DNA of 24,000 bases from Arcicella sp. LKC2W (GCF_034931005.1 NZ_JAYGIN010000004.1:343960-367959); one strand, 5' to 3'. Counted from the first letter of the stretch, positions 1-24,000 are shown. Numbers and translations: made by a program. The notes: generated by a model from the sequence alone, not told the origin.

Positions 1-896
1 ACGACATCAGTAAAAATGCTCCAGTAAACTTCAATCGTGATATCACGAATGTTTTACCTTCGGCAAACTTAACTTACAATTTCTCTGAAAAATCATTGTT
101 ACGTTTTGCTTACGGAAAAACCGTTAACCGTCCTGAATTCCGTGAAATTGCTCCATTCTCTTTCTATGATTTTGTAAATAACCGTGTAATCACTGGTAAT
201 TCAAATCTTGAAAATGCACAAGTTGACAATGCCGATTTCCGTTACGAATTCTATCCAACACCTTCTGAAATTATCTCGGTTGCAGCTTTCTATAAATATT
301 TCAAGACACCAATCGAAGTTGTTTTTGACGGTGTGAATAATAACAACATCAGTTTTAGTAACGCAGAAAGTGCTTTCAGTACAGGTATCGAATTAGAGGT
401 TAGAAAATCATTGGATAAATTGACTGACTCTAAATTCTTGAATAAAATCAATTTGGTTTTCAACGGAGCATTTATTTATAGCCGAGTGAAATTTAGTGCC
501 AATACGATTAACCAATCAGATAATCGTCCATTACAAGGACAGTCGCCGTACATCATCAATGCAGGTATTAATTACAACGATAACAAAAACAATACACAAA
601 TTAGCTTATTGTTCAACGTAATCGGAAAGCGTATTTATGCAGTAGGAAACTCATTTGCAGCAGGTTATCCAGACTGGTACGAAATGCCACGTAATGTGTT
701 AGACTTGACTTTCTCGAAAGAAGTTTACAAAAACTTAATCGTGAAAGGTGGTATTACAGATATTCTTAATAACAAAAACTTAATTCTTCAAGACGGAAAC
801 AGAGATGGTAGTTTCAATAGCGATTCAGACCAAACAATCCAGTCTTATTCTCCAGGTAGAGTTTATTCTTTGGGCGTAGTTTATACAATTCGCTAA
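1..896 (+). CDS. TonB-dependent outer-membrane receptor, C-terminal beta-barrel part (5' end lies outside the window)
   Basis: The frame is open from nt 3 (DISKNAPVNFNRDITNVLPS...), so the TTG at 96 in the ORF track is only an artefact of the window edge. Alternating beta-strand pattern, NRPEFREIAPFSFYDF motif and terminal barrel strand RVYSLGVVYTIR resemble Bacteroidota TBDRs. Confidence 0.8.
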   Translation, partial: DISKNAPVNFNRDITNVLPSANLTYNFSEKSLLRFAYGKTVNRPEFREIAPFSFYDFVNNRVITGNSNLENAQVDNADFRYEFYPTPSEIISVAAFYKYFKTPIEVVFDGVNNNNISFSNAESAFSTGIELEVRKSLDKLTDSKFLNKINLVFNGAFIYSRVKFSANTINQSDNRPLQGQSPYIINAGINYNDNKNNTQISLLFNVIGKRIYAVGNSFAAGYPDWYEMPRNVLDLTFSKEVYKNLIVKGGITDILNNKNLILQDGNRDGSFNSDSDQTIQSYSPGRVYSLGVVYTIR

Positions 897-2866: not shown

Positions 2867-3415
2867 ATGAAAACGATACTTTTAGGCTTACTGATTACCT
2901 TAACGCTCATTTCCTGTCAATCTAATAATAACGACTTTGATAATTATTTTTCTAAAAGTCAACAAGATAGCCTCTTAACCAATATTGTTACTTACCTCTA
3001 TTTACCTGCTCCAGAAGCAACCAATAAAACAAAGTTTCAGCCTCAATTTAGAGGTTTTTACGCCAAAAATATTCCTAATTTTAAAGTACAAAAGTATTAC
3101 CAAGCAGAAAATGGTTGGCATTACTTTTTCCTGATTCGCCCAGTAGGTTCAAGCTCAGCTTTTAAAAGAGGCGTTCTCGGGAAATTCAAATTAACGCCCA
3201 ATTCATTAATGCCAATAGCATTTGAAGAAGTTGCCAATACACCACATTTAGCGGAGGAAGTAGCAAAAGAACGTGGTAATTATTTATTCCAAGAATTGAT
3301 AAAAAACGGGAATTTAAACCAGCAAATTCCTATGAAACAATATATAGAATGGCCAGATGAACATTTGGCTTATGATAAAAAGACAAATCAGTGGATAACT
3401 ATAAAACCGTATTAA
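2867..3415 (+). CDS. Small lipoprotein, unknown function (182 aa)
   Basis: Signal peptide plus lipobox LISC. Clean ORF with ATG start and no competing ORF. Confidence 0.65.
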   Translation: MKTILLGLLITLTLISCQSNNNDFDNYFSKSQQDSLLTNIVTYLYLPAPEATNKTKFQPQFRGFYAKNIPNFKVQKYYQAENGWHYFFLIRPVGSSSAFKRGVLGKFKLTPNSLMPIAFEEVANTPHLAEEVAKERGNYLFQELIKNGNLNQQIPMKQYIEWPDEHLAYDKKTNQWITIKPY

Positions 3416-8118: not shown

Positions 8119-9030
8119 TTATTTCTGCGAAGCTTTAAATAACTTTTGTTTTTCTTCTTTGGTCAAACTTTCATAACCTGAGCGAGAAATTTTATCTAAA
8201 ATCTCATCAACCTCATCATCGTCTGGATAACCTCCGCCAACGCCCGCAGGGGTACTACTATAAGTGGATTCTTTTTGACGATAAGCCACTTTAATCGTTG
8301 GTTTTTCAGTACGCTTAAAGATATTTTGGAAAAAATCAAAAGTGGCATCCAGTGGGGTTCCCCAATCTCTGCCCACTTGCAATTGTTTTACATACAAATA
8401 ACCTAATAACGCTCCTCCTAAATGGACAATTCCTCCGCCTGCATTTGTACCAATTGCTCCTGCCAATGAAATCAAGAAAAAGAAAAACGCAATGTATTTA
8501 ATCCGAACAGGACCAATCAAGAATAAAAAGAAGGTATAATCAGGCATTAAGGTTGCGGCTGCAAAAACAATCGCCATAACGCTTCCAGATGCTCCGATGA
8601 TGGTTGTACTAAGGGCTACTTGATAATACGGAATAAAATTGAAGGCAGCTAAGGCTAAGATTCCACCAAATAATGCTCCAAGAATGTATAAATTAATTAA
8701 TCTACGGCTTCCTAAAAACTCCTGAATAATTGCCCCAAACCAATATAGCATCAACATATTGGGCAAAAGGTGAGCAATTGGATTTACCGAGTGAAAGAAT
8801 GCGTAAGTAAGTATTGTCCAAGGGCGAAAAAGGAACGTTCCCATCGCTGGCGTGAGGCTGAAATATGAAAGTACATTTTCAAAAACATCGGATTTTTTGA
8901 AAAACACCGTTAATGTTATCAAGCACAATAACATGACCACATACACCGCCACATTCAGCCAAATTAACTGAATTAAACCGTTGTTACGCTTGGCGAAAGC
9001 GTCTTTGAAGTCATCTAAAATCCCACTCAT
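8119..9030 (-). CDS. Rhomboid-family intramembrane serine protease (303 aa, with a soluble C-terminal tail)
   Basis: Multi-TM protein with catalytic GASGSVMAI (GxSG) and HLGGALLGYLY (His) motifs. The hydrophilic C-terminal tail ends in DEILDKISRSGYESLTKEEKQKLFKA. Confidence 0.85.
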   Translation of the reverse strand: MSGILDDFKDAFAKRNNGLIQLIWLNVAVYVVMLLCLITLTVFFKKSDVFENVLSYFSLTPAMGTFLFRPWTILTYAFFHSVNPIAHLLPNMLMLYWFGAIIQEFLGSRRLINLYILGALFGGILALAAFNFIPYYQVALSTTIIGASGSVMAIVFAAATLMPDYTFFLFLIGPVRIKYIAFFFFLISLAGAIGTNAGGGIVHLGGALLGYLYVKQLQVGRDWGTPLDATFDFFQNIFKRTEKPTIKVAYRQKESTYSSTPAGVGGGYPDDDEVDEILDKISRSGYESLTKEEKQKLFKASQK

Positions 9031-9155: not shown

Positions 9156-9947
9156 TTAATAAAAATTGTTTCGCTTTGTTCCCCAAATTTTAATGAGAAT
9201 AAAAGCAAAAATCATGCCTCCAATATGGGCAAAATGGGCAACGTTATCGCCAGGCATTTTATGTAAGCCAGCATAGATTTCGTAAAGCCCATAGAAAGTT
9301 ACAAAATATTTAGCTTTAATCGGAATTGGAATGGGGAAAAGCATTAATTCTGTATTGGGAAATAAAATGGCAAAACCTGCCATTACGCCAAAAACTGCTC
9401 CTGATGCCCCAATCATTGGGGTATTCAAAACACTTTTTAAACTTTCTTCAATAACAAATACGGATTCTTTCAATGAAACGTTGCCTGTATTTTCTAATAA
9501 TCCGTAAACATTGGATGGAATTCCCTCCGAATAAAACTTTTGTATGAGACTTTCAAACTGTTTAAAATCTGGATTTTGAATATATGCTTCTGAAGCTGCT
9601 TGTAAAGCACTAATGTCGTAATATTTTAACCCCATATATAGCAATCCTGCCCCAATACCTGTTCCGAGATAAAAAGCTAAAAAACGCTTCTCTCCCCAAA
9701 ACATTTCTAAGATTGGGCCTAAAAAAAATAGCCCCAACATATTTCCGAAAATATGCCCAATGCCCGAATGGACAAACATATACGTTACCAATTGAATTGG
9801 ATTGAATTGTTCCGAAGAAAAATAGTGCAAACCAAACAGCGAAACAATCATTCTATCATATTGTGGATTAATAGATTGAACGATGAATACAATAACATTT
9901 ATGGCAATTATCGCCCTAATAATAGGCGTGATAGTGGGTGTTCTCAT
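9156..9947 (-). CDS. Rhomboid-family intramembrane serine protease (263 aa)
   Basis: GASGAVFGVMAG (GxSG) and HIGGMIFAF (His) motifs and six predicted TM segments. A roughly 70-aa hydrophilic insert separates the TM blocks. Confidence 0.85.
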   Translation of the reverse strand: MRTPTITPIIRAIIAINVIVFIVQSINPQYDRMIVSLFGLHYFSSEQFNPIQLVTYMFVHSGIGHIFGNMLGLFFLGPILEMFWGEKRFLAFYLGTGIGAGLLYMGLKYYDISALQAASEAYIQNPDFKQFESLIQKFYSEGIPSNVYGLLENTGNVSLKESVFVIEESLKSVLNTPMIGASGAVFGVMAGFAILFPNTELMLFPIPIPIKAKYFVTFYGLYEIYAGLHKMPGDNVAHFAHIGGMIFAFILIKIWGTKRNNFY

Positions 9948-11733: not shown

Positions 11734-12909
11734 ATGACCATTTTAGAAGTCGCTGACGATAAAAAATTACAACAAGAATTTCTTTTATTACCTGTAAAAC
11801 TGTACGCTGAGGATGCTAATTGGATTCGTCCGCTCGACCAAGATGTTGAGAATACGTTTAATCCAAACAAAAATAAATACTTTAAACACGGTGAGGCTAT
11901 CCGTTGGATTTTGCAAAATGAATCTGGCGAAACTATCGGTCGTGTAGCAGCTTTTATCAATCATGAAACTGCTCAAAAAGAAGAACAACCAACAGGAGGA
12001 ATGGGCTTTTTTGAGTGTATCTCAGACGAAAAAATAGCTTTTTTATTATTTGATACTTGTAAAAATTGGTTGGCATCAAAAGGCATGGAGGCAATGGACG
12101 GTCCAATCAATTTTGGCGAACGTGATGCTTTTTGGGGCTTAATGACTAAAGGTTGGCAATACGAACCAACTTACAAAATGGCTTGGACAAAAGAATATTA
12201 CATTCCATTTTTTGAGAATTATGGCTTCAAAGATTATTTCCAACAATTTGTGTATGTTTCGCCAATCAGGGCGGCATCGGTGGCGGATACTGTGGAAGAC
12301 AAAGCTCGTAAGGTTTATGCAAATCCTGATTATGATTTCAGGCATATTGAAAAACGTAAATTAGAAAAATACGGGGAAGATTTTAGAACGGTTTTTAATG
12401 AAGGTTGGGCAAAATTTCCTGGAGTAAAAGCTATGAGTTCGGAACAGGCTCAGAGTTTGGTAAAAACAATGAAACCTATCATTGACGAACAATTGACTTG
12501 GTTTGCTTACGCAGGCGAGCGTCCGATTGCTTTCTTTATCGTTATCCCAGATATTAATCAGATTGTCAAGCACTTGAATGGTAAATTTGGTTGGTACGAA
12601 AAAGCAAAATTCGCTCTTTTGCTCATGCGTGGCGTGGTTACTCGTACTTGTGGGATGATTTTTGGCGTTGTACCCGATTTTCAAGGAAAGGGAATTGAGT
12701 CGGCAATTGCTTTGCGTTTCCGTCAGGCTGGGCGAGATAATCCACATTATCAATACGAAACTATCGACATGAACTGGGTGGGCGATTTTAACCCTAAAAT
12801 GAACCGTTTTGTGTCGCAATTGGGTACAAGTCGTGACAAAGAATATATCACTTATCGTTTTCTTTTTGATAGAACAAAGGAATTTAAACGTTGTCCAAGA
12901 GTGGGATAA
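11734..12909 (+). CDS. GNAT-superfamily acyltransferase-like protein, uncharacterised family (391 aa)
   Basis: Clean 391-aa ORF. GVVPDFQGKGIESAIALRF resembles the acyl-CoA-binding Q/RxxGxG/A segment of GNAT folds. The functional call is tentative. Confidence 0.55.
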   Translation: MTILEVADDKKLQQEFLLLPVKLYAEDANWIRPLDQDVENTFNPNKNKYFKHGEAIRWILQNESGETIGRVAAFINHETAQKEEQPTGGMGFFECISDEKIAFLLFDTCKNWLASKGMEAMDGPINFGERDAFWGLMTKGWQYEPTYKMAWTKEYYIPFFENYGFKDYFQQFVYVSPIRAASVADTVEDKARKVYANPDYDFRHIEKRKLEKYGEDFRTVFNEGWAKFPGVKAMSSEQAQSLVKTMKPIIDEQLTWFAYAGERPIAFFIVIPDINQIVKHLNGKFGWYEKAKFALLLMRGVVTRTCGMIFGVVPDFQGKGIESAIALRFRQAGRDNPHYQYETIDMNWVGDFNPKMNRFVSQLGTSRDKEYITYRFLFDRTKEFKRCPRVG

Positions 12910-16501: not shown

Positions 16502-16936
16502 TTATTCTAAAACTATCTTCCCGTCACGGTCGATATTTGTTCTTTTGTCGAAATGAAAATCATAGAAACCTGCATTGCCCGATTGAGTGTCAACTTTTAT
16601 TGAGCTACGTCCCATTTCTAAGCCATCGTTGTCGTAAGCTTTGGCGGTAACTTTTCCTTTGAATTTTTTAGAGAAAATTAAATAGACACTCAAAAGATTG
16701 TCTGTTCCTCCATCTTTATCACTTTTCAGCGTTACTTTTCCGTTGGTAATCCCTTTATCGATGAGGGCTTCTGTATAAGTTAATTTAATGGCACGAGCTT
16801 TTTTTACACCTGTTTCAATGCCTTTTACCATTGTGCCAGCGGTTTCTCCAATTTTTTCGGTAGAGTTACTCAATCTGTCGCAAGATGAAACCATGGTTGA
16901 GAAAGCTAAAATACTGAGAATTAATACTTTTTTCAT
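16502..16936 (-). CDS. Small lipoprotein, unknown function (144 aa)
   Basis: Signal peptide plus lipobox VSSC. Beta-rich mature part. Clean ORF. Confidence 0.65.
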   Translation of the reverse strand: MKKVLILSILAFSTMVSSCDRLSNSTEKIGETAGTMVKGIETGVKKARAIKLTYTEALIDKGITNGKVTLKSDKDGGTDNLLSVYLIFSKKFKGKVTAKAYDNDGLEMGRSSIKVDTQSGNAGFYDFHFDKRTNIDRDGKIVLE

Positions 16937-17389: not shown

Positions 17390-18292
17390 ATGAAAAAAAA
17401 CAATTTCTTACGTTTGTTAACCATAGCAAGCGTAACCGCCATGACTATTTGGGCTTGCCAAACCAACGATTTAACAAGTCCTGTTTCGTCAAATGAAGAA
17501 ACCAATGTATCAAGTGCCAAAGTGGCGGCTTGTCCTCCTGTGTATGCTTTGGTTTTATTGGGAAGTGCTGGCTCGCCTGTTCCTGCGGGTTTTGCATCGT
17601 ATATTTATAAAGTAAATCCTTGCTCGTCGCCTGTTGGTTTTACACCAGTTTCACAAATTAAAATTGGAGGTACTCCTGTGTATTCGGTAACAGGTCTTTG
17701 TGATATGTATGGCGTAGCTGATATGGCTTGGGCAGTTACGGGCATTAATTCAAATTTCCCTCAAAAATTGTTGAGAGTAAAAATATCAACTGGAGTTGCT
17801 TCTGTGGTAAGCACAACGACTGCTCCTTTGCAAGATATTGAAAACTATGGCAATACATCCTTATTTGTAGCCATTAAGGAAGGAACTTCCCAGCTTTTGA
17901 AAGTGGCAGTTCCCAGTGGAGTTACGACTATATTTGCTCCTGCTGGACCAACAGCACAATATAATGGATTGACTGTGGTGGGTACTAAATTTCAAGCTAT
18001 TTCGGGTTTAACCAATTTAATTTGTAGTCCAAACAGTGGAGATATTTTTGAGTATCCAAATACTGGAGGAGCCTATACAGGTAAATATTCGTATAAAAAT
18101 TTACCTGCTAATGGTATTTGGACGATGAAAGAATTAGGCTTCCATTTTGATAGTTGCTGTAGTAAACGTTGGATGGTTGGTAGTTCGTCTAATATTCTGT
18201 CTCACAATATAAATGTTACCGCTTGTTTGCCATCAAATCCCGTATTGTTATTTCAAACTCGCCCAATTTATGATTTCATGGTAAAACCCTAA
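17390..18292 (+). CDS. Cys-containing lipoprotein, unknown function (300 aa)
   Basis: Signal peptide MKKNNFLRLLTIASVTAMTIWAC. Seven further Cys in the mature part, including a CC pair. Repetitive beta-strand-like V/T/G-rich segments. I recognise no family. Confidence 0.6.
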   Translation: MKKNNFLRLLTIASVTAMTIWACQTNDLTSPVSSNEETNVSSAKVAACPPVYALVLLGSAGSPVPAGFASYIYKVNPCSSPVGFTPVSQIKIGGTPVYSVTGLCDMYGVADMAWAVTGINSNFPQKLLRVKISTGVASVVSTTTAPLQDIENYGNTSLFVAIKEGTSQLLKVAVPSGVTTIFAPAGPTAQYNGLTVVGTKFQAISGLTNLICSPNSGDIFEYPNTGGAYTGKYSYKNLPANGIWTMKELGFHFDSCCSKRWMVGSSSNILSHNINVTACLPSNPVLLFQTRPIYDFMVKP

Positions 18293-20183: not shown

Positions 20184-20187
20184 TATC

Positions 20188-20213
20188 AGTAGAGACGTTG
20201 CCTGCAACGTCTT
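20188..20213 (+). terminator. Left arm of the 26-bp perfect inverted repeat; a self-folding hairpin 5 nt after the ABC stop codon
   Basis: agtag-agacgttgc-ct-gcaacgtct-t: the internal 9-bp palindrome agacgttgc/gcaacgtct is followed by tttat. It is the exact reverse complement of 20540-20565. Confidence 0.6.
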
Positions 20214-20486
20214 TATCGCAACGTTTTGACCCACAATGTCTTTATCACAATGTTTTGACCCACAACGTCTTTATCGCAGTTTTGACCCACAACGTCTTTA
20301 TCGCAACGTTTTGACCCACAACGTCTTTATCGCAACGTTTTGACCCACAACGTCTTTATCGCAACGTTTTGACCCACAACGTCTTTATCGCAACGTTTTG
20401 ACCCACAACGTCATTATCGCAACGTTTTGACCCACAACGTCTTGATAGCAACATTTTGACCCACAATGTCTTGATAGCAACGTTTA
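20205..20486. repeat. Tandem array of a 29-bp unit, nine full copies plus one partial (consensus CAACGTCTTTATCGCAACGTTTTGACCCA)
   Basis: Copies start at 20205, 20234, 20263 (27 nt, AC deleted), 20290, 20319, 20348, 20377, 20406, 20435 and 20464 (partial). Copies 1 and 4-7 are identical. Copies 2, 3 and 8-10 are diverged. There are no spacers and no ORF. Confidence 0.95.
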
Positions 20487-20539
20487 ATTTAGATTATTCA
20501 ATAAATTTATTATGAATATTGTTGCCTGTAATGCCCTCT

Positions 20540-20565
20540 AAGACGTTGCAGGCAACGTCTCTACT
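20540..20565. repeat. Right arm of the 26-bp perfect inverted repeat; a self-folding hairpin 29 nt upstream of the MFS ATG
   Basis: a-agacgttgc-ag-gcaacgtct-ctact is the exact reverse complement of 20188-20213. Confidence 0.9.
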
Positions 20566-20593
20566 ATAAATATTGATTCTCAAACACGCCACG

Positions 20594-21754
20594 ATGAAAC
20601 GGATTTTACCCATTATTGTCATTTCTCAATTTTTCTGTACGTCGCTTTGGTTTGCAGGAAATGCCATTTTACCTGATTTAGCCAAACATTTTAATATTGA
20701 GGCGAATAATATCGCTCATTTAGTAAGTGCCGTTCAGTTTGGTTTTATATCGGGAACTTTCGTTTTTGCTCTTTCTGGACTGGTGGATAGATTTGTGGCT
20801 ACTCGTATATTCTTTGTTTGCTCCATTTTGGCGGCTTTGTGCAATATTAGCGTTGTGATTTTGCCAACAACAGAAGCTATTTTGTTGATTTCTCGCTTTT
20901 TAACGGGTTTTTTCTTGGCAGGCATTTATCCCGTAGGCATGAAAATAGCTTCCGACCATTACCAAAAAGGTTTGGGCAAATCGTTGGGTTTATTAGTAGG
21001 AGCTTTGGTATTGGGAACGGCTTTCCCGCATTTTTTGAAAGGATTTAATACCAATTATTCGTGGGAATTTGTCCTTTGGGCTACTTCTGGACTTTCGGTT
21101 TTGGGTGGTTCAATGATGTTAATTTTTGTACCCAAAGGTCAATTTTCATCAGTTTCTAAGAAAATTGATTTCAAAGCGATTAGTAACGGCTTTAAAATCC
21201 ACAATTTCCGAAGTCCAGCTTTGGGATATTTTGGACACATGTGGGAATTATACACTTTTTGGGCATTTTTGCCCGCCTTGATTTTGTCTTATAAAAATCA
21301 GCATTATCAAACAGATATTAATGTTGCTCAATGGTCGTTTGTGATAATTGCTTCTGGTTCGGTGGCTTGTGTTATTGGAGGTTATCTTTCTGAATATTTT
21401 GGAATGAAAACTGTTGCTATTTCTGCTCTTGGTTTGTCTTGTCTCTGTTGTTTGATTTCTCCAATTTTACTTACTTATGCCAATGCTCCTGCTTTATTTT
21501 GTTTCCTATTATTTTGGGGAATGGTCGTTATTGCAGATTCGCCATTATTTTCAACTTTAGTCGCTCAAAATGCCCCAGTAGCATCAAAAGGGACATTGTT
21601 GACCATTACCAATAGCATTGGTTTTTCTTTAACAATTATCAGTATTCAGTTTTTAGGACTATTGTCAAGTGTGATAAATACCAATTATTTATACACTTTT
21701 TTGGCTATTGGTCCATTGTTGGGGATAGTTATGCTTCTTAAAAAAGAATCTTAA
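20594..21754 (+). CDS. MFS-family transporter (12 TM)
   Basis: About 386 aa and highly hydrophobic, with the two-times-six TM layout and an MFS-like loop motif (RFLTGFFLAGIYPVGMKIASD). I prefer the ATG at 20594 over the TTG at 20573 in the ORF track. Confidence 0.8.
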   Translation: MKRILPIIVISQFFCTSLWFAGNAILPDLAKHFNIEANNIAHLVSAVQFGFISGTFVFALSGLVDRFVATRIFFVCSILAALCNISVVILPTTEAILLISRFLTGFFLAGIYPVGMKIASDHYQKGLGKSLGLLVGALVLGTAFPHFLKGFNTNYSWEFVLWATSGLSVLGGSMMLIFVPKGQFSSVSKKIDFKAISNGFKIHNFRSPALGYFGHMWELYTFWAFLPALILSYKNQHYQTDINVAQWSFVIIASGSVACVIGGYLSEYFGMKTVAISALGLSCLCCLISPILLTYANAPALFCFLLFWGMVVIADSPLFSTLVAQNAPVASKGTLLTITNSIGFSLTIISIQFLGLLSSVINTNYLYTFLAIGPLLGIVMLLKKES

Positions 21755-22413
21755 AATTTGAATTTATAGCCTAATCCAATAATCGCTCCAGATGATTCTG
21801 TTCCAACTAAATCCACATTAGAAAATACCGATACATCAACAGCATGGTGTTTGTTAAACTTATAAGAAATACCTGCTTTAGGGCGTATTTGGTCAATTTT
21901 TGCTCCAATTTCATAGAATATATCTCCCGAAATATAAGGCGTGAATTTCGACTTATTCGGATATGATATTTCTAATTTGTTTCTTAAATAACTGGTATCA
22001 AAATCAGTTTCTCCGTCATTATCTTTAAATTGACTTTGATAACGTAATCGGTTTTCAAATTTCAAAAAGCCTAATTTTCGTTCATAGGATAAATCTGCAT
22101 AAAAACGATGACGACTTTTAAACTCCTTTGTTTCATTTTTTCTTCGCTCAGTATAACGGTAGTTTCCTGAAATTTCAAAGTTTTTTAGAAATTTATAAGA
22201 TAAACCAATCTCTCCAATATAGGTCTGAGCATAAGAGACATTCTCTACAATTCTTGCTTGACCGCTGAGAGATACGGATAATTTTTTGGTTATTTTTTTC
22301 TCTACACTAATGCTATTCCACAAAGCTAAACCCTCATTTTGGGCATAGAGTTGATTGAAAGTGAATGTCAATAATAAGAGAATAATGAAAGGGTGAAATG
22401 ATGATATTTTCAT
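21751..22413 (-). CDS. Outer-membrane beta-barrel protein (220 aa; possibly DUF2490-like)
   Basis: Signal peptide ending YAQ. Alternating hydrophobic/polar strands, Tyr/Arg-rich girdles and a C-terminal GLGYKFKF with terminal Phe. It starts 2 nt after the upstream gene's stop. Confidence 0.65.
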   Translation of the reverse strand: MKISSFHPFIILLLLTFTFNQLYAQNEGLALWNSISVEKKITKKLSVSLSGQARIVENVSYAQTYIGEIGLSYKFLKNFEISGNYRYTERRKNETKEFKSRHRFYADLSYERKLGFLKFENRLRYQSQFKDNDGETDFDTSYLRNKLEISYPNKSKFTPYISGDIFYEIGAKIDQIRPKAGISYKFNKHHAVDVSVFSNVDLVGTESSGAIIGLGYKFKF

Positions 22414-22415
22414 GT

Positions 22416-23042
22416 TTATTTTTCGTAATAATACATAATCAGTTGTACAGAGTCTTTCAAAAAATCATAATCCTGGATTTCTACTCGATGAATATTTAGT
22501 CCTGTTCTTGCACTCAAATCTTCTATTAAAAGTTCTCTATTGGCAGGACTAATCAATCCTATTTTATCATAAGTTACTACTTTTGTATGTTCTTTTTTGA
22601 TAAGCCAACTTCCTTCTAATAAGGCAGTTATCAGTAATAAAATAGTTGTTGTAAATAGTAGCTCTTCCCAAGAATTCTTACTGATTGCCGAAATCAAACC
22701 GATAGCAATAACAATAAAAAGATAGGTCATGTCTTTGGTAGAAATCCCTTCAGTACGGTAACGTAGCATCGAAAAAACTGCAAACAAACCAAAGGCTGCT
22801 CCCATGCTCATTTCTACTTTATTGAGAAGGTAGGTAAGCAAAAATATAATTACATTGAACCCAAAAAAAGTAAGAAAATGGTCTGTCCGACGATAATGTC
22901 TGAAATAAATAATTCTGATTAAAATAAAAACTGCAATAATGTCAAATGCAAATTGTGTTAAAAATTGGGCTGACGAAGCACTAAGCCATTGAATATTCAG
23001 AAGGGTGTGGGATGAAAGTGTTATTGATTGTAAATAAGTCAT
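22416..23042 (-). CDS. Inner-membrane protein with soluble C-terminal domain (DUF4956-like)
   Basis: Four or five TM segments followed by an approximately 70-aa hydrophilic domain (KVVTYDKIGLISPANRELLIEDLSARTGLNIHRVEIQDYDF). Size and its partnership with a VTC-domain gene fit DUF4956. Family assignment is from memory. Confidence 0.6.
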   Translation of the reverse strand: MTYLQSITLSSHTLLNIQWLSASSAQFLTQFAFDIIAVFILIRIIYFRHYRRTDHFLTFFGFNVIIFLLTYLLNKVEMSMGAAFGLFAVFSMLRYRTEGISTKDMTYLFIVIAIGLISAISKNSWEELLFTTTILLLITALLEGSWLIKKEHTKVVTYDKIGLISPANRELLIEDLSARTGLNIHRVEIQDYDFLKDSVQLIMYYYEK

Positions 23043-23805
23043 ATTGGTTAATGGTCTTTTGTAAATGTAAATATTTCGATTTGAAACGGTTATATTTTAT
23101 GGTAGGTTGAGTGCTGATAACCCCCAAACAATACTTGCTAATTGAGCCTTCACGTAGGTTGTATTTTCTGAAAATATCAATAATTGGAGATGACCCCAAT
23201 TGTTCTTGTTTTACCTCAGCAATAGCGATTTTAGGAAAATTTACTTCTTGATTATTTCCTTGAAATTGTAAATTAATATCAATCGTTAAACGCTCAGGAC
23301 TTGTTCTGTTGACGAAGGTCATTCGACGGTAATTTACGCCTAAATTCTCTTGAATGTCATAAGGTCTGTACGGACTTGTTTTTTCTAAAAATTGAGACAT
23401 TTGTGGGCTAAATACCTCATCAGGACTTCCTTCTATTCGTTTTTTGATGGTTCTTCCTTTATTATTTTTATGCTTAATTTCTAAAAACGATAATGACGAA
23501 TTAAGATATGTTCGAAATCTGATTTTATACCGACTACCCCTTCCAGATTGATGATGATGATATAATTCCAATTGTTGAGTATCAAAATAGCGACTTTCAT
23601 AAGCAGATAATCGTTCCCCTTTCACTTCTAAAATTCGGTAAAGTGGCAACGCTTCTTCCAAAATTTGCGGTAAAAGATGAATAGGAATAATATATTTTAC
23701 GTCAACTCGATTCATCAGGCTAACACCATCCATTTGTTTGAGGTCAATTTTTTCAAACTTCGAGGTAATAACTTTAATTTCTTCTATATAAAATGCTGGA
23801 TTCAT
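22981..23805 (-). CDS. VTC-domain / triphosphate-tunnel (CYTH-like) polyphosphate polymerase-like protein
   Basis: Charged residues alternate on predicted beta-strands, typical of tunnel metalloenzymes: RVDVKY, YESRYFDT, RYKIRFRTY, FLEIKHK, RLTIDINL and IAEVK. The size of 274 aa fits bacterial VTC-domain proteins. Confidence 0.7.
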   Translation of the reverse strand: MNPAFYIEEIKVITSKFEKIDLKQMDGVSLMNRVDVKYIIPIHLLPQILEEALPLYRILEVKGERLSAYESRYFDTQQLELYHHHQSGRGSRYKIRFRTYLNSSLSFLEIKHKNNKGRTIKKRIEGSPDEVFSPQMSQFLEKTSPYRPYDIQENLGVNYRRMTFVNRTSPERLTIDINLQFQGNNQEVNFPKIAIAEVKQEQLGSSPIIDIFRKYNLREGSISKYCLGVISTQPTIKYNRFKSKYLHLQKTINQYDLFTINNTFIPHPSEYSMA

Positions 23806-23923
23806 AGTATTTGCAAAATCTATAACTGCTTGATTACAAGTGGAAACGACTTGTTTTGGTCGTTTTGGTTGAACTAAAGTTTGATAAATTTAAGATAGAG
23901 ACATAAAATCAAATCGGAACTAT

Positions 23924-24000
23924 CTACAATTTGTCGCAGAATAAAATTAGCCCACAGATTGTACTTATTCAACGGATTTACACGGATAAATTTAAAGAAA
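23924..24000 (+). repeat. REP-like family A copy (runs off the window end)
   Basis: ctacaatttgtcgcagaataaaattagcccacagattgtacttattcaacggatttacacggataaatttaaagaaa. The 3' part matches 5702-5760. The tttgtcgcaga 11-mer matches the reverse complement of 5936-5946. Confidence 0.85.

What the first reader, a model, noticed from the sequence alone, without database searches (positions are those of the whole stretch)
21751..23805. Compact operon: VTC/tunnel-fold polyphosphate-polymerase-like protein + DUF4956-like inner-membrane protein + outer-membrane beta-barrel
Three minus-strand genes are packed with a 62-nt overlap and a 2-nt gap. The first has the alternating charged beta-strand motifs of triphosphate tunnel metalloenzymes of the VTC type (RYKIRFRTY, FLEIKHK, IAEVK). 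In eukaryotes this is the catalytic fold of the vacuolar polyphosphate polymerase Vtc4, which couples synthesis to membrane translocation. Here the soluble domain is encoded next to a 4-5 TM protein with a small cytoplasmic domain, and a signal-peptide-bearing barrel ending in Phe. From memory, bacterial VTC/DUF4956 pairs are often linked to CotH-like kinases. No CotH gene is present in this window, and an OM barrel follows the pair instead. By inference, this may be a split, envelope-spanning analogue of the VTC complex that makes and exports polyphosphate or another phosphoanhydride polymer, independent of PPK1/PPK2. I am not aware of any experimental characterisation of such a trio.
Basis: partly seen in the sequence, partly recalled or inferred. 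Interest (0 to 1): 0.65.

Follow-up and report, generated by a model that had tools for sequence, protein, structure and literature searches.

The report
Bacterial VTC-like polyphosphate polymerase envelope operon
A tightly packed three-gene operon in an Arcicella genome encodes a bacterial look-alike of the yeast polyphosphate-making enzyme Vtc4, an inner-membrane partner and a positively charged outer-membrane barrel, and this widely conserved but unstudied set may be a PPK-independent way for bacteria to make polyphosphate and move it into or out of the cell envelope.

Summary
Three minus-strand ORFs (274, 208 and 220 aa; 62-nt overlap, 2-nt gap) match Pfam VTC (E=3e-27), DUF4956 (1e-51) and DUF2490 (4e-26).

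- **VTC protein:** The AlphaFold model (pLDDT 91) is closest to the yeast Vtc4 catalytic domain. All nine residues needed for Vtc4 activity are invariant in the bacterial family, including the Lys458 equivalent that inactive Vtc2/3 lack.
- **Conservation:** VTC+DUF4956 is an obligate pair across four phyla. In 80 Bacteroidota genomes DUF4956 follows VTC in 78 and the barrel lies in the same locus in 69.
- **Barrel:** Its conserved positions are almost all Arg or Lys. In a Pseudoalteromonas, a phosphate-selective OprO/P porin occupies the barrel's place.
The barrel does not replace CotH, because relatives carry exported CotH kinases alongside it. DUF4956 shows no detectable homology to the Vtc1-type channel.

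Export is inferred, not shown. Phosphate uptake or storage remains a live rival. The only genetics (S. intermedius) found no phenotype for the VTC gene. No biochemical study of the bacterial system was found. I rate it a new variant of a known kind, moderately to highly interesting.

The parts
22981..23805 (-). Gene for a 274-aa soluble VTC-type triphosphate tunnel metalloenzyme (Vtc4-like polyphosphate polymerase catalytic domain; no SPX domain and no TM domain)
   Evidence: Pfam VTC matches at E=3.1e-27. The AF2 model has pLDDT 90.8, and its best PDB matches are yeast Vtc4 at E=1e-12 and TM 0.56-0.60, ahead of YgiF and other TTMs. The residues K37, K94/R96/R98, K111, Y159, R161, E197, S223 and K224 correspond to Vtc4 K200, R264/R266, K281, Y359, R361, E426, S457 and K458. 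All are invariant in the family.
22416..23042 (-). Gene for a 208-aa DUF4956 inner-membrane protein: five TM helices (N-terminus outside, C-terminus inside) plus a cytoplasmic ACT-like beta-alpha-beta-beta domain
   Evidence: Pfam DUF4956 matches at E=1.1e-51. The AF2 model has pLDDT 69, with helices 22-50, 56-72, 78-97, 102-120 and 125-143 and a C-terminal domain at 151-206. K/R residues cluster in loops 47-55 and 94-104 and in the C-terminal tail. The core motif SMGAAFGLFAVFSMLRYRTE..KDMTYLF is nearly invariant. The gene is adjacent to VTC in 78 of 80 surveyed loci.
21751..22413 (-). Gene for a 220-aa DUF2490 outer-membrane beta-barrel precursor (putative porin family TC 1.B.81), with signal peptide at residues 1-24
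   Evidence: Pfam DUF2490 matches at E=3.8e-26, with weak hits to OM barrel families. The signal peptide is followed by Gln25, which is invariant in alignment A4 and present in 93% of 75 homologues; an amphipathic strand pattern runs through the rest. Thirteen positions are at least 80% basic, twelve of them K/R in the window protein (K43, R54, K74, K77, R86, R103, K113, R122, R144, K146, K156, R177), against one conserved acidic position. The pI is 9.5. The literature describes the family's AlphaFold models as OM beta-barrels with Sec signal peptides.
22981..23042 (-). 62-nt overlap between the end of the VTC gene and the start of the DUF4956 gene, implying translational coupling
   Evidence: The same overlap occurs in the closest relatives, and overlaps of 0-30 nt occur in others. 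The overlapped part encodes the low-confidence C-terminal tail of VTC.
23806..24000 (-). Upstream intergenic region, presumed promoter, cut by the end of the window
   Evidence: In the 94%-identical contig, the next gene is a divergent 151-aa ORF 465 nt upstream. The sigma-70 consensus scan is at chance level, as expected for Bacteroidota.

Best explanation
The three genes form one conserved envelope module for phosphate-polymer metabolism.

**Step 1 (inferred from homology and residue conservation).** The soluble 274-aa protein is a Vtc4-type tunnel enzyme. At the inner face of the cytoplasmic membrane it transfers the gamma-phosphate of ATP, with Mn2+ or Mg2+, onto a growing polyphosphate chain.

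**Step 2 (inferred from obligate pairing, overlapping genes and topology).** The enzyme docks on the DUF4956 protein. That protein's basic cytoplasmic loops and ACT-like domain face the enzyme. DUF4956 takes the chain into or across the inner membrane, favoured by the inside-negative membrane potential.

**Step 3 (inferred from gene linkage and from the basic character of the barrel's conserved residues).** The DUF2490 barrel provides an anion-selective passage through the outer membrane.

**Step 4 (relatives only).** In related genomes, exported CotH-family kinases encoded in the same locus probably use or act on the exported phosphate polymer. The window lineage carries only the minimal three-gene core.

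**Confidence by claim.** I put about 0.85 on a real, conserved functional module acting on condensed phosphate at the envelope. I put about 0.6 on the enzyme being a polymerase rather than a hydrolase. I put about 0.4 on the complete synthesis-coupled export route.
For: **Domain identities and fold.** Pfam supports all three assignments. The high-confidence model is closest to the Vtc4 catalytic domain, ahead of hydrolytic TTMs.

**Catalytic residues.** All residues whose mutation lowers polyP in yeast have invariant counterparts (for the list; for the mapping). Lys458, which is Ile/Leu in inactive Vtc2/3, corresponds to K224.

**Acidic patch.** Two of the acidic-patch positions that define hydrolytic TTMs are basic here, as in Vtc4: R33 corresponds to R196 and K199 to K428. 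The same residues are conserved in Deinococcus and Rhizobiales homologues.

**Obligate pairing.** DUF4956 is adjacent to VTC in 78 of 80 Bacteroidota genomes. The same 16 plasmid/chromid records hold both genes. The gene overlap is conserved.

**Barrel linkage.** The barrel is directly downstream in 55 loci and elsewhere in the locus in 14 more. ORFs that run DUF4956 straight into DUF2490 or CotH exist. A phosphate-selective Porin_O_P gene lies 1 nt after DUF4956 in Pseudoalteromonas.

**Barrel chemistry.** The barrel's conserved residues are almost all Arg or Lys.

**DUF4956 topology (N-out, C-in).** This is supported by positive-inside charge, by N-terminal signal peptides in some homologues, and by internal signal peptides in the merged ORFs.

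**Exported CotH.** Linked CotH kinases all carry signal peptides, lipoboxes or T9SS tails. Their substrate or phosphoryl donor must therefore be outside the cytoplasm.

**Genetics.** In S. intermedius, deleting the DUF4956-type and CotH genes changes a cell-surface matrix phenotype.
Against: - No activity, localisation or transport has been measured for any bacterial member.
- Position 35 is Asp or Glu in all bacterial members, where Vtc4 has Thr198. This is one of the acidic-patch positions of hydrolytic TTMs.
- DUF4956 has no detectable similarity to the Vtc1 channel or to any solved transporter, and its model is only moderately confident. It could be an anchor or regulator rather than a conduit.
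- Neighbours in other phyla (phytase-like esterase, PiT, acid phosphatase, PhnCDE, OprO/P) are typical phosphate-acquisition genes.
- DUF2490 also occurs unlinked to VTC. A published survey finds a buried salt-bridge network inside some DUF2490 models, which could mean a plugged barrel.
- Deleting the streptococcal VTC gene gave no reported phenotype, whereas deleting its two neighbours did.
- The barrel's structure was not predicted here.
Confidence: 0.4

Rival explanations
1. Phosphate acquisition and storage module. The basic barrel lets phosphate, pyrophosphate or short polyphosphate IN through the outer membrane. The VTC enzyme polymerises cytoplasmic phosphate into a store, acting as a sink that pulls uptake, as the PHO-regulated VTC genes do in yeast. 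DUF4956 is a membrane anchor or ACT-domain regulator rather than an export channel. The polyP stays inside or on the membrane.
For: OprO/P-type porins are uptake porins, and one replaces the barrel in Pseudoalteromonas. A PiT phosphate transporter, phytase-like esterases, HAD acid phosphatases and PhnCDE flank the pair in Rhizobiales and Deinococcus. DUF4956 has an architecture of five TM helices plus an ACT-like domain, described in the literature as MgtC-like and regulatory. It has no similarity to known channels.
Against: This reading does not explain why exported CotH kinases and T9SS-secreted proteins are linked in about half of Bacteroidota loci. It does not explain the link to an exopolysaccharide operon in Gram-positives. 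The near-invariant intramembrane core of DUF4956 looks more like a functional conduit or active site than an anchor. Sequence comparison with a real MgtC-family protein found nothing.
Confidence: 0.25
2. Uptake and hydrolysis. The tunnel enzyme is a tri- or polyphosphatase like YgiF or AtTTM3. The barrel and DUF4956 import extracellular condensed phosphate, which the enzyme degrades to phosphate for growth.
For: Most characterised TTM enzymes are hydrolases. An Asp or Glu at position 35 retains one acidic-patch residue. The neighbours in other phyla are of the phosphate-scavenging type.
Against: The fold and profile are closest to Vtc4, not to hydrolases; there is no CYTH hit. The other mapped acidic-patch positions are basic, as in Vtc4, and the polymerase-specific Lys458 equivalent is invariant. 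Importing a polyanion against an inside-negative potential would need an energy source that the operon does not encode.
Confidence: 0.12
3. The enzyme makes or cleaves a different triphosphate compound, such as a nucleotide signal, thiamine triphosphate, or a phosphorylated glycan or protein. DUF4956 and the barrel serve that product, so polyphosphate is not involved.
For: The TTM superfamily includes cyclases, RNA triphosphatases and thiamine triphosphatases. The link to Pel polysaccharide loci and to CotH kinases could point to modification of matrix components.
Against: Every polyP-contacting residue of Vtc4 is conserved, including those that lead the chain out of the tunnel. No additional nucleotide- or sugar-handling domain is present in the 274-aa protein.
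Confidence: 0.1
4. The three genes are merely neighbours with no common function.
For: DUF2490 can occur alone. Nine of 80 loci show no barrel within 8 kb.
Against: Order and orientation are conserved across 80 species whose flanking genes differ. The coding sequences overlap or abut. Merged ORFs exist.
Confidence: 0.03

Closest known systems
Yeast/protist VTC complex (Vtc4 catalytic TTM domain with the Vtc1/2/3 membrane channel)
   Same: The enzyme has the same Pfam family and the same tunnel fold. It has the same triphosphate-, Mn- and chain-binding residues, including the catalytic Lys458 equivalent. It is obligatorily associated with a small multi-helix membrane protein, which suggests coupling of synthesis to membrane passage.
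   Different: There is no SPX sensor domain. There is no fused three-helix DUF202/Vtc1 domain. The membrane partner, DUF4956, is a separate protein with five helices plus an ACT-like domain and no detectable homology to Vtc1. An outer-membrane barrel is added. Position 35 is Asp or Glu instead of Thr198. The target compartment would be the periplasm or exterior, not a vacuole.
CotH / 'polyphosphate polymerase' / DUF4956 accessory genes of Gram-positive Pel exopolysaccharide loci (Streptococcus, Clostridium, Bifidobacterium; C. perfringens NELoc-2)
   Same: The VTC+DUF4956 core is the same. In Bacteroidota relatives such as Runella, the same CotH partner is present.
   Different: The window has no CotH and no pel genes. 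A DUF2490 outer-membrane barrel is present, as expected for a diderm. In Bacteroidota, the extra conserved partners are a MORN-like secreted protein and a small lipoprotein. The published authors reported that they could not find the synteny outside Pel loci. The survey here finds it widely without Pel.
OprP/OprO phosphate- and pyrophosphate-selective porins (Pfam Porin_O_P)
   Same: It is an outer-membrane barrel whose conserved polar residues are mainly Arg or Lys. A true Porin_O_P gene occupies the barrel's position right after DUF4956 in Pseudoalteromonas.
   Different: There is no sequence relationship. DUF2490 is much smaller, about 196 residues when mature against about 400. Its pore, selectivity and oligomeric state are untested.
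Hydrolytic triphosphate tunnel metalloenzymes (E. coli YgiF, AtTTM3, CYTH family)
   Same: They share the same superfold and the same triphosphate-binding basic residues.
   Different: There is no CYTH profile hit. The four-Glu acidic patch is not complete: R33 and K199 are basic. The fold match is weaker than to Vtc4.
MgtC family (PF02308)
   Same: Both have about five TM helices followed by a small cytoplasmic ACT-like domain. The published description of the streptococcal homologue calls it MgtC-like.
   Different: Profile comparison with E. coli YhiD shows no similarity (probability 0.1%), and there is no Pfam MgtC hit.

Membership tests
VTC domain family (Pfam PF09359), Vtc4-type polyphosphate polymerase catalytic domain | Profile match above the curated threshold | tested here: met
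   96.1 bits against a cutoff of 23, E=3.1e-27, covering profile positions 1-232 of 235.
VTC domain family (Pfam PF09359), Vtc4-type polyphosphate polymerase catalytic domain | Closed beta-tunnel (TTM) fold closest to Vtc4 | tested here: met
   The AF2 model has pLDDT 90.8. The top Foldseek PDB hits are 3g3r, 3g3q, 5iig and 8i6v (Vtc4) at E=1e-12 and TMq 0.56-0.60. YgiF scores 8e-9 and other TTMs 1e-7 or weaker. This rests on a predicted structure, not a solved one.
VTC domain family (Pfam PF09359), Vtc4-type polyphosphate polymerase catalytic domain | Triphosphate- and Mn-binding residues K200, R264, R266, K281, Y359, R361, E426, S457 | tested here: met
   They map to K37, K94/R96 (or R96/R98, a 2-residue register ambiguity in an all-basic strand), K111, Y159, R161, E197 and S223. 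All are invariant in 27 homologues and conserved in Deinococcus and Rhizobiales, except that Y159 is Cys in Deinococcus.
VTC domain family (Pfam PF09359), Vtc4-type polyphosphate polymerase catalytic domain | Catalytic Lys458, which is Ile/Leu in the inactive paralogues Vtc2/Vtc3 | tested here: met
   K224 is invariant in all bacterial sequences aligned.
VTC domain family (Pfam PF09359), Vtc4-type polyphosphate polymerase catalytic domain | Absence of the four-Glu acidic patch (second metal site) of hydrolytic TTMs | tested here: inconclusive
   R33 (=R196) and K199 (=K428) are basic, as in Vtc4. Position 35 is Asp or Glu where Vtc4 has Thr198. The fourth patch position could not be mapped without a structural superposition.
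VTC domain family (Pfam PF09359), Vtc4-type polyphosphate polymerase catalytic domain | ATP-dependent polyphosphate synthesis | not testable with these tools
   This needs a biochemical assay. No published assay of a bacterial member was found.
Eukaryotic VTC complex (Vtc1/Vtc3/Vtc4) | SPX domain sensing inositol pyrophosphates | tested here: not met
   The 274-aa protein consists of the tunnel domain only, and no other Pfam hit is found.
Eukaryotic VTC complex (Vtc1/Vtc3/Vtc4) | Three-helix Vtc1/DUF202-type transmembrane channel domain | tested here: not met
   This domain is absent from the enzyme. DUF4956 gives no DUF202 hit even at E<=10, no PDB profile hit to VTC chains, and no Foldseek hit.
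DUF4956 (Pfam PF16316) | Profile match above threshold | tested here: met
   175.4 bits against a cutoff of 30.6, covering the full profile 1-169.
MgtC family (PF02308) | Sequence relationship to MgtC/YhiD | tested here: not met
   hhalign of the DUF4956 profile against E. coli YhiD gives probability 0.1%, and there is no Pfam MgtC hit. The architecture (five TM helices plus an ACT-like domain) is nonetheless similar.
DUF2490 (Pfam PF10677; TCDB 1.B.81 putative outer-membrane porins) | Profile match above threshold | tested here: met
   92.4 bits against a cutoff of 29.8.
DUF2490 (Pfam PF10677; TCDB 1.B.81 putative outer-membrane porins) | Sec signal peptide and amphipathic beta-strands of an outer-membrane barrel | tested here: met
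   The signal peptide has a conserved A|Q cleavage motif. An alternating hydrophobic pattern runs through about 10-12 segments, and the protein ends in Phe. A published survey describes the family's AlphaFold models as OM beta-barrels.
DUF2490 (Pfam PF10677; TCDB 1.B.81 putative outer-membrane porins) | Open pore conducting solutes | not testable with these tools
   The function is stated as not established in the literature. Some models show a buried charge network.
CotH/PPP/DUF4956 accessory module of Pel loci | Adjacent CotH kinase gene | tested here: not met
   There is none in the 24-kb window. There is none within 10 kb in the 94%-identical contig. One is present in 38 of 80 related loci.
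CotH/PPP/DUF4956 accessory module of Pel loci | Adjacent pelDEAFG genes | tested here: not met
   No such genes are in the window, and none are among the recurrent neighbour clusters of the 80 loci.

The most novel reading that the evidence does not exclude
Bacteria possess a third polyphosphate synthase that is independent of PPK. It is the prokaryotic counterpart, and possibly the ancestor, of the eukaryotic VTC machine. It couples synthesis to secretion through a dedicated inner-membrane protein (DUF4956) and, in diderms, an arginine-lined outer-membrane barrel. The result is periplasmic or extracellular polyphosphate, which serves as matrix polyanion and/or as phosphoryl donor for exported CotH kinases that have no access to cytoplasmic ATP.
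Probability: 0.25. Interest if true: 0.85.

Novelty: new variant of a known kind. Interest (0 to 1): 0.62.

Why it matters
Textbook and review accounts assign bacterial polyphosphate synthesis to PPK1/PPK2 and treat VTC as eukaryotic. A 2023 review mapped the VTC domain only across eukaryotes.

Here a Vtc4-like enzyme with an intact catalytic set is found in thousands of bacterial protein clusters. It is always paired with the same membrane protein. In Bacteroidota it is also paired with a basic outer-membrane barrel.

If the enzyme is a polymerase coupled to export, three things follow:
- It would give a genetic handle on how bacteria place polyphosphate outside the cytoplasm.
- It would explain why exported CotH kinases and cationic Pel polysaccharide loci travel with these genes.
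- It would bear on the origin of the eukaryotic VTC complex.

If it is instead an uptake or storage device, it would be a new phosphate-scavenging route. Either result is directly testable with one small soluble enzyme and two small membrane proteins.

Tried and rejected
1. An exact-sequence look-up of the window's VTC protein found no record. Context was obtained from a 94%-identical protein and from the DUF4956 protein instead.
2. Single-sequence PDB searches of all three proteins found nothing. A 27-sequence profile reached Vtc2/Vtc4 only weakly, at E=0.014 and 0.99. hmmalign and hhalign aligned only part of Vtc4. The full residue map relies on a MAFFT alignment that agrees with those partial alignments and with the motifs.
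3. NCBIfam has no model for any of the three proteins.
4. My first CotH HMM drifted onto T9SS C-terminal sorting domains and over-counted. I replaced it with a core-only HMM.
6. Foldseek and PDB-profile searches for DUF4956 and DUF2490 gave no significant hits. The KdgM hit at E=0.37 is only a hint and is not used as evidence.
7. The promoter/terminator consensus scan was at chance level.
8. The MgtC relationship proposed in the literature for the streptococcal homologue was not reproduced at the sequence level.
9. The DUF4956-DUF2490 and DUF4956-CotH 'fusion' proteins were considered as Rosetta-stone evidence. I downgraded them because each keeps an internal signal peptide, often with its own Met, so they may be merged adjacent genes.
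10. Ten literature searches found no biochemical characterisation.

Full report
**1. Observation**

The window (about 36% G+C) carries three minus-strand ORFs at 22981-23805 (274 aa), 22416-23042 (208 aa) and 21751-22413 (220 aa). The first two overlap by 62 nt, and a 2-nt gap separates the last two.

- Pfam assigns them to VTC (PF09359, E=3.1e-27), DUF4956 (PF16316, E=1.1e-51) and DUF2490 (PF10677, E=3.8e-26). All score far above the curated cut-offs. NCBIfam has no model for any of them.
- Downstream lie a convergent MFS transporter gene and an MsbA-like ABC exporter gene. The rest of the window is housekeeping.
- The window ends 195 nt upstream of the VTC gene.
- The organism is an Arcicella (Cytophagales, Spirosomataceae). 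The VTC protein is 90% identical to that of A. aurantiaca and 94% identical to a metagenomic contig.
- In that closest contig the trio stands alone. The next upstream gene is a divergent 151-aa ORF, and there is no CotH within 10 kb.

**2. The enzyme**

An AlphaFold2 model built on 27 homologues is confident (pLDDT 90.8, pTM 0.87). Its best matches in the PDB are all yeast Vtc4 catalytic-domain structures (E about 1e-12, TM 0.56-0.60). Next come Vtc2/3, then the tripolyphosphatase YgiF (8e-9), then other tunnel enzymes (1e-7 or weaker).

The cryo-EM study of VTC lists the residues that hold the triphosphate and Mn2+ and whose mutation lowers cellular polyP: K200, R264, R266, K281, Y359, R361, S457, K458 and E426. 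It notes that K458 is the one residue replaced (by Ile or Leu) in the inactive paralogues Vtc2/3.

I wrote the Vtc4 190-481 sequence from memory and verified it as 100% identical to the PDB chains. I then aligned it to the bacterial family.

- Every listed residue has an invariant counterpart: K37, K94/R96/R98 (an all-basic strand with a 2-residue register ambiguity), K111, Y159, R161, E197, S223 and K224.
- Further tunnel residues also match (R33=R196, K121=K294, R172=R373, K199=K428).
- The same residues are conserved in homologues from Deinococcus and four Rhizobiales.

Martinez et al. showed that hydrolytic and cyclase tunnel enzymes carry a four-Glu acidic patch forming a second metal site. 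In Vtc4 those positions are basic residues that lead the chain out. They also showed that the Lys458 equivalent is dispensable for hydrolysis.

In the bacterial family two mappable patch positions are basic, as in Vtc4 (R33, K199). Position 35 is Asp or Glu where Vtc4 has Thr. On balance the enzyme looks like a polymerase, but that one residue leaves room for doubt.

**3. The membrane partner**

The DUF4956 model is of moderate confidence (pLDDT 69). It shows five TM helices and a C-terminal beta-alpha-beta-beta domain.

Three lines of evidence place the N-terminus outside and the C-terminal domain in the cytoplasm:
- K/R residues cluster in loops 47-55 and 94-104 and in the C-terminal tail.
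- Some homologues have N-terminal signal peptides.
- Internal signal peptides follow the C-terminal domain in the merged ORFs.

The core SMGAAFGLFAVFSMLRYRTE..KDMTYLF is almost invariant.

There is no significant match to any solved structure or to the Vtc1/DUF202 domain. Only weak ACT-like hits to the C-terminal domain appear. The published description of the streptococcal homologue as 'MgtC-like plus ACT' fits the architecture. However, a profile comparison with E. coli YhiD, a true MgtC-family protein, finds nothing.

**4. The barrel**

The protein has a signal peptide with a conserved A|Q cleavage motif. It shows an alternating amphipathic pattern over about 10-12 segments and ends in Phe.

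Among 75 homologues, thirteen positions are at least 80% basic, and twelve of them are K/R in the window protein: K43, R54, K74, K77, R86, R103, K113, R122, R144, K146, K156 and R177. Only one conserved position is acidic.

The literature lists DUF2490 as a putative porin family of unknown function. It describes the AlphaFold models as outer-membrane barrels, some with a buried charge network.

**5. Conservation**

A scan of one genome per species returned 80 loci, all from Bacteroidota. I annotated them with HMMs built in-session.

| Feature | Loci out of 80 |
|---|---|
| DUF4956 directly follows VTC | 78 (the other two end at contig edges) |
| DUF2490 directly downstream | 55 |
| DUF2490 elsewhere in the locus | 14 |
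| DUF2490 not seen | 9 (several truncated) |
| MORN-like secreted protein (about 155 aa) just upstream of VTC | 62 |
| Prealbumin-like lipoprotein (about 134 aa) | 34 |
| CotH kinase genes | 38 |
| LytTR-type two-component system | 14-19 |

Unbiased clustering of neighbours revealed the further recurrent partners in the table. All full-length CotH proteins carry signal peptides, lipoboxes or T9SS sorting domains. Runella has CotH-VTC-DUF4956-DUF2490 in a single row. The window lineage lacks the MORN-like gene and CotH, so it carries the minimal core.

Outside Bacteroidota, tblastn against plasmid and chromid records found VTC and DUF4956 together in the same 16 records.

| Organism | Arrangement |
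|---|---|
| Deinococcus taeanensis | CotH-VTC-DUF4956 |
| Deinococcus sp. QL22 | VTC-DUF4956 beside an acid phosphatase and phnDCE |
| Aminobacter, Shinella | DUF4956-VTC-phytase-like esterase |
| Nitratireductor | as above, with a PiT phosphate transporter in between |
| Pseudoalteromonas | a VTC remnant, DUF4956 and, 1 nt later, a phosphate-selective Porin_O_P gene (E=2e-47) |

A profile search of 1.84 billion representatives found 1,857 DUF4956 clusters. Four long hits are DUF4956 joined in frame to DUF2490 (three) or to CotH (one).

Conversely, a Bacteroides finegoldii record has a DUF2490 gene with no VTC nearby. The barrel family is therefore wider than this system.

**6. Literature**

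Only five papers in the library mention DUF4956, and none is functional.

- Whitfield et al. noted CotH, a 'polyphosphate polymerase' and DUF4956 as accessory genes of Gram-positive pel loci. C. perfringens NELoc-2 has the same set.
- The 2025 S. intermedius study gives the only genetics. Deleting the DUF4956-type gene or the CotH gene halved aggregation in sputum medium and changed Pel levels. Deleting the VTC gene had no reported effect. The authors could not find the three-gene synteny outside Pel loci.
- B. thetaiotaomicron BT3498-99 (DUF4956, DUF2490) appear only in an iron-stimulon table.
- No biochemical work and no description of the diderm trio were found.

**7. Interpretation**

*What is shown.* The three genes are a real, conserved module. 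The enzyme is a VTC-type tunnel protein with a complete Vtc4-like catalytic set. The partner is an N-out/C-in membrane protein. The third protein is an exported, strongly basic barrel.

*What is inferred.* Polymerase activity, hand-over to DUF4956, and passage through the barrel are all inferences.

*For export.* The polymerase signature points this way. So does the membrane potential, which favours polyanion exit. So does the extracytoplasmic location of the linked CotH kinases and secreted proteins, and the link to a cationic exopolysaccharide in Gram-positives.

*Against export.* The phosphate-acquisition flavour of neighbours in other phyla argues the other way. Also against are the lack of similarity of DUF4956 to any channel, the Asp/Glu at position 35, the possible plugged state of some DUF2490 barrels, and the silent streptococcal VTC deletion.

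*Probabilities.*
- About 0.4 for the full synthesis-coupled export route.
- About 0.25 for an uptake-plus-storage reading.
- About 0.12 for uptake plus hydrolysis.
- About 0.1 for a different phosphorylated product.
- Very little for coincidence.

**8. Novelty**

The domain pair and its CotH link are already noted in passing in the literature, and databases name the enzyme a 'polyphosphate polymerase domain-containing protein'. The following appear to be undescribed:
- the conserved diderm trio with a basic barrel;
- replacement of that barrel by an OprO/P porin;
- the breadth of the module across phyla without Pel;
- the intact Vtc4 catalytic signature in bacterial members.

I class the finding as a new variant of a known kind: a split bacterial analogue of the VTC machine. 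It is of moderate to high interest because it is directly testable.

Noticed in passing
L006:7538-8008 (+) and the equivalent position in 62 of 80 surveyed loci; absent from the window lineage: A secreted repeat protein of about 155 aa (signal peptide, YD..GK..E repeats, weak Pfam MORN_2 hit) lies immediately upstream of VTC, often overlapping its start. It looks like a fourth core component of the Bacteroidota operon. Its function is unknown.
   Followed up: partly
L039:7091-7492 (+) and 33 other loci: A lipoprotein of about 134 aa with weak prealbumin / CarboxypepD_reg-like hits recurs next to the module, sometimes in two copies.
   Followed up: partly
L087:7664-9660 (Pseudoalteromonas sp. 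CuT4-3 chromid): DUF4956 is followed 1 nt later by a phosphate-selective Porin_O_P gene (E=2e-47). The VTC gene upstream is reduced to a 104-aa remnant that still shows IAELKQ and SFSKYCIGC. A lamin-tail-domain protein lies in front.
   Followed up: partly
P0255, P0315, P0365 (DUF4956+DUF2490) and P0288 (DUF4956+CotH): These are single ORFs that join the inner-membrane protein in frame to the barrel or to CotH. Each keeps an internal signal peptide or lipobox before the second part. They may be true fusions, stop-codon loss or assembly artefacts.
   Followed up: partly
L089-L092 (Aminobacter, Nitratireductor, Shinella chromids): In Rhizobiales the gene order is reversed: DUF4956, then VTC, followed by a phytase-like esterase, with a PiT phosphate transporter in between in Nitratireductor. 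An ECF sigma/anti-sigma pair and an S8 peptidase lie upstream, except in Shinella, whose upstream genes are a phospholipase D-like and a lysylphosphatidylglycerol synthase domain protein. No outer-membrane barrel is adjacent.
   Followed up: no
L040:5816-7483 (+) and 15 other loci: A protein of about 556 aa, with only a T9SS Por_Secre_tail hit, occupies the position where CotH sits in other loci. It could be a very divergent CotH or a different secreted partner.
   Followed up: no
L065:5888-6697, L072:4178-4993, and many representatives of 244-275 aa: Some DUF4956 homologues carry an N-terminal extension of 50-70 aa with a cleavable-looking signal peptide and a Lys-rich linker. This is unusual for a polytopic inner-membrane protein.
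   Followed up: no
L006:2196-3936 and 13-18 other loci: A LytTR response regulator and a LytS-type histidine kinase recur a few kb upstream of the module in Spirosomataceae. They are possibly its regulators.
   Followed up: no
PMC12345266 compared with loci L003, L093 and 38 of the 80 surveyed loci: The 2025 S. intermedius paper states that the CotH / polyP-polymerase / DUF4956 synteny was not found outside Pel loci. Here it is common in Bacteroidota and present in Deinococcus, with no pel genes nearby.
   Followed up: partly
window 20184-20572 and 17390-18292, compared with L001: Relative to the 94%-identical contig, the window lacks a GH43 glycoside hydrolase gene between the ABC exporter and the MFS gene. 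It also has an extra 300-aa ORF without a Pfam hit next to the ABC exporter, so there are local indels between close strains.
   Followed up: no
window 8119-9030 and 9156-9947 (-): Two rhomboid-family protease genes lie in tandem. The first has a DUF6576 C-terminal extension.
   Followed up: no
window 96-896, 1033-2772, 2867-3415, 11734-12909, 16502-16936 (and 17390-18292): Six ORFs of 144-579 aa have no Pfam hit at E<=1e-4.
   Followed up: no
L036 (Arcicella rigui) compared with L005 (A. aurantiaca) and the window: Within the genus Arcicella there are two locus types. One is a stand-alone trio (the window and A. aurantiaca). The other is a CotH x2 / MORN-like / VTC / DUF4956 / DUF2490 locus whose VTC is only 48% identical. 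This suggests either paralogous systems or replacement.
   Followed up: no
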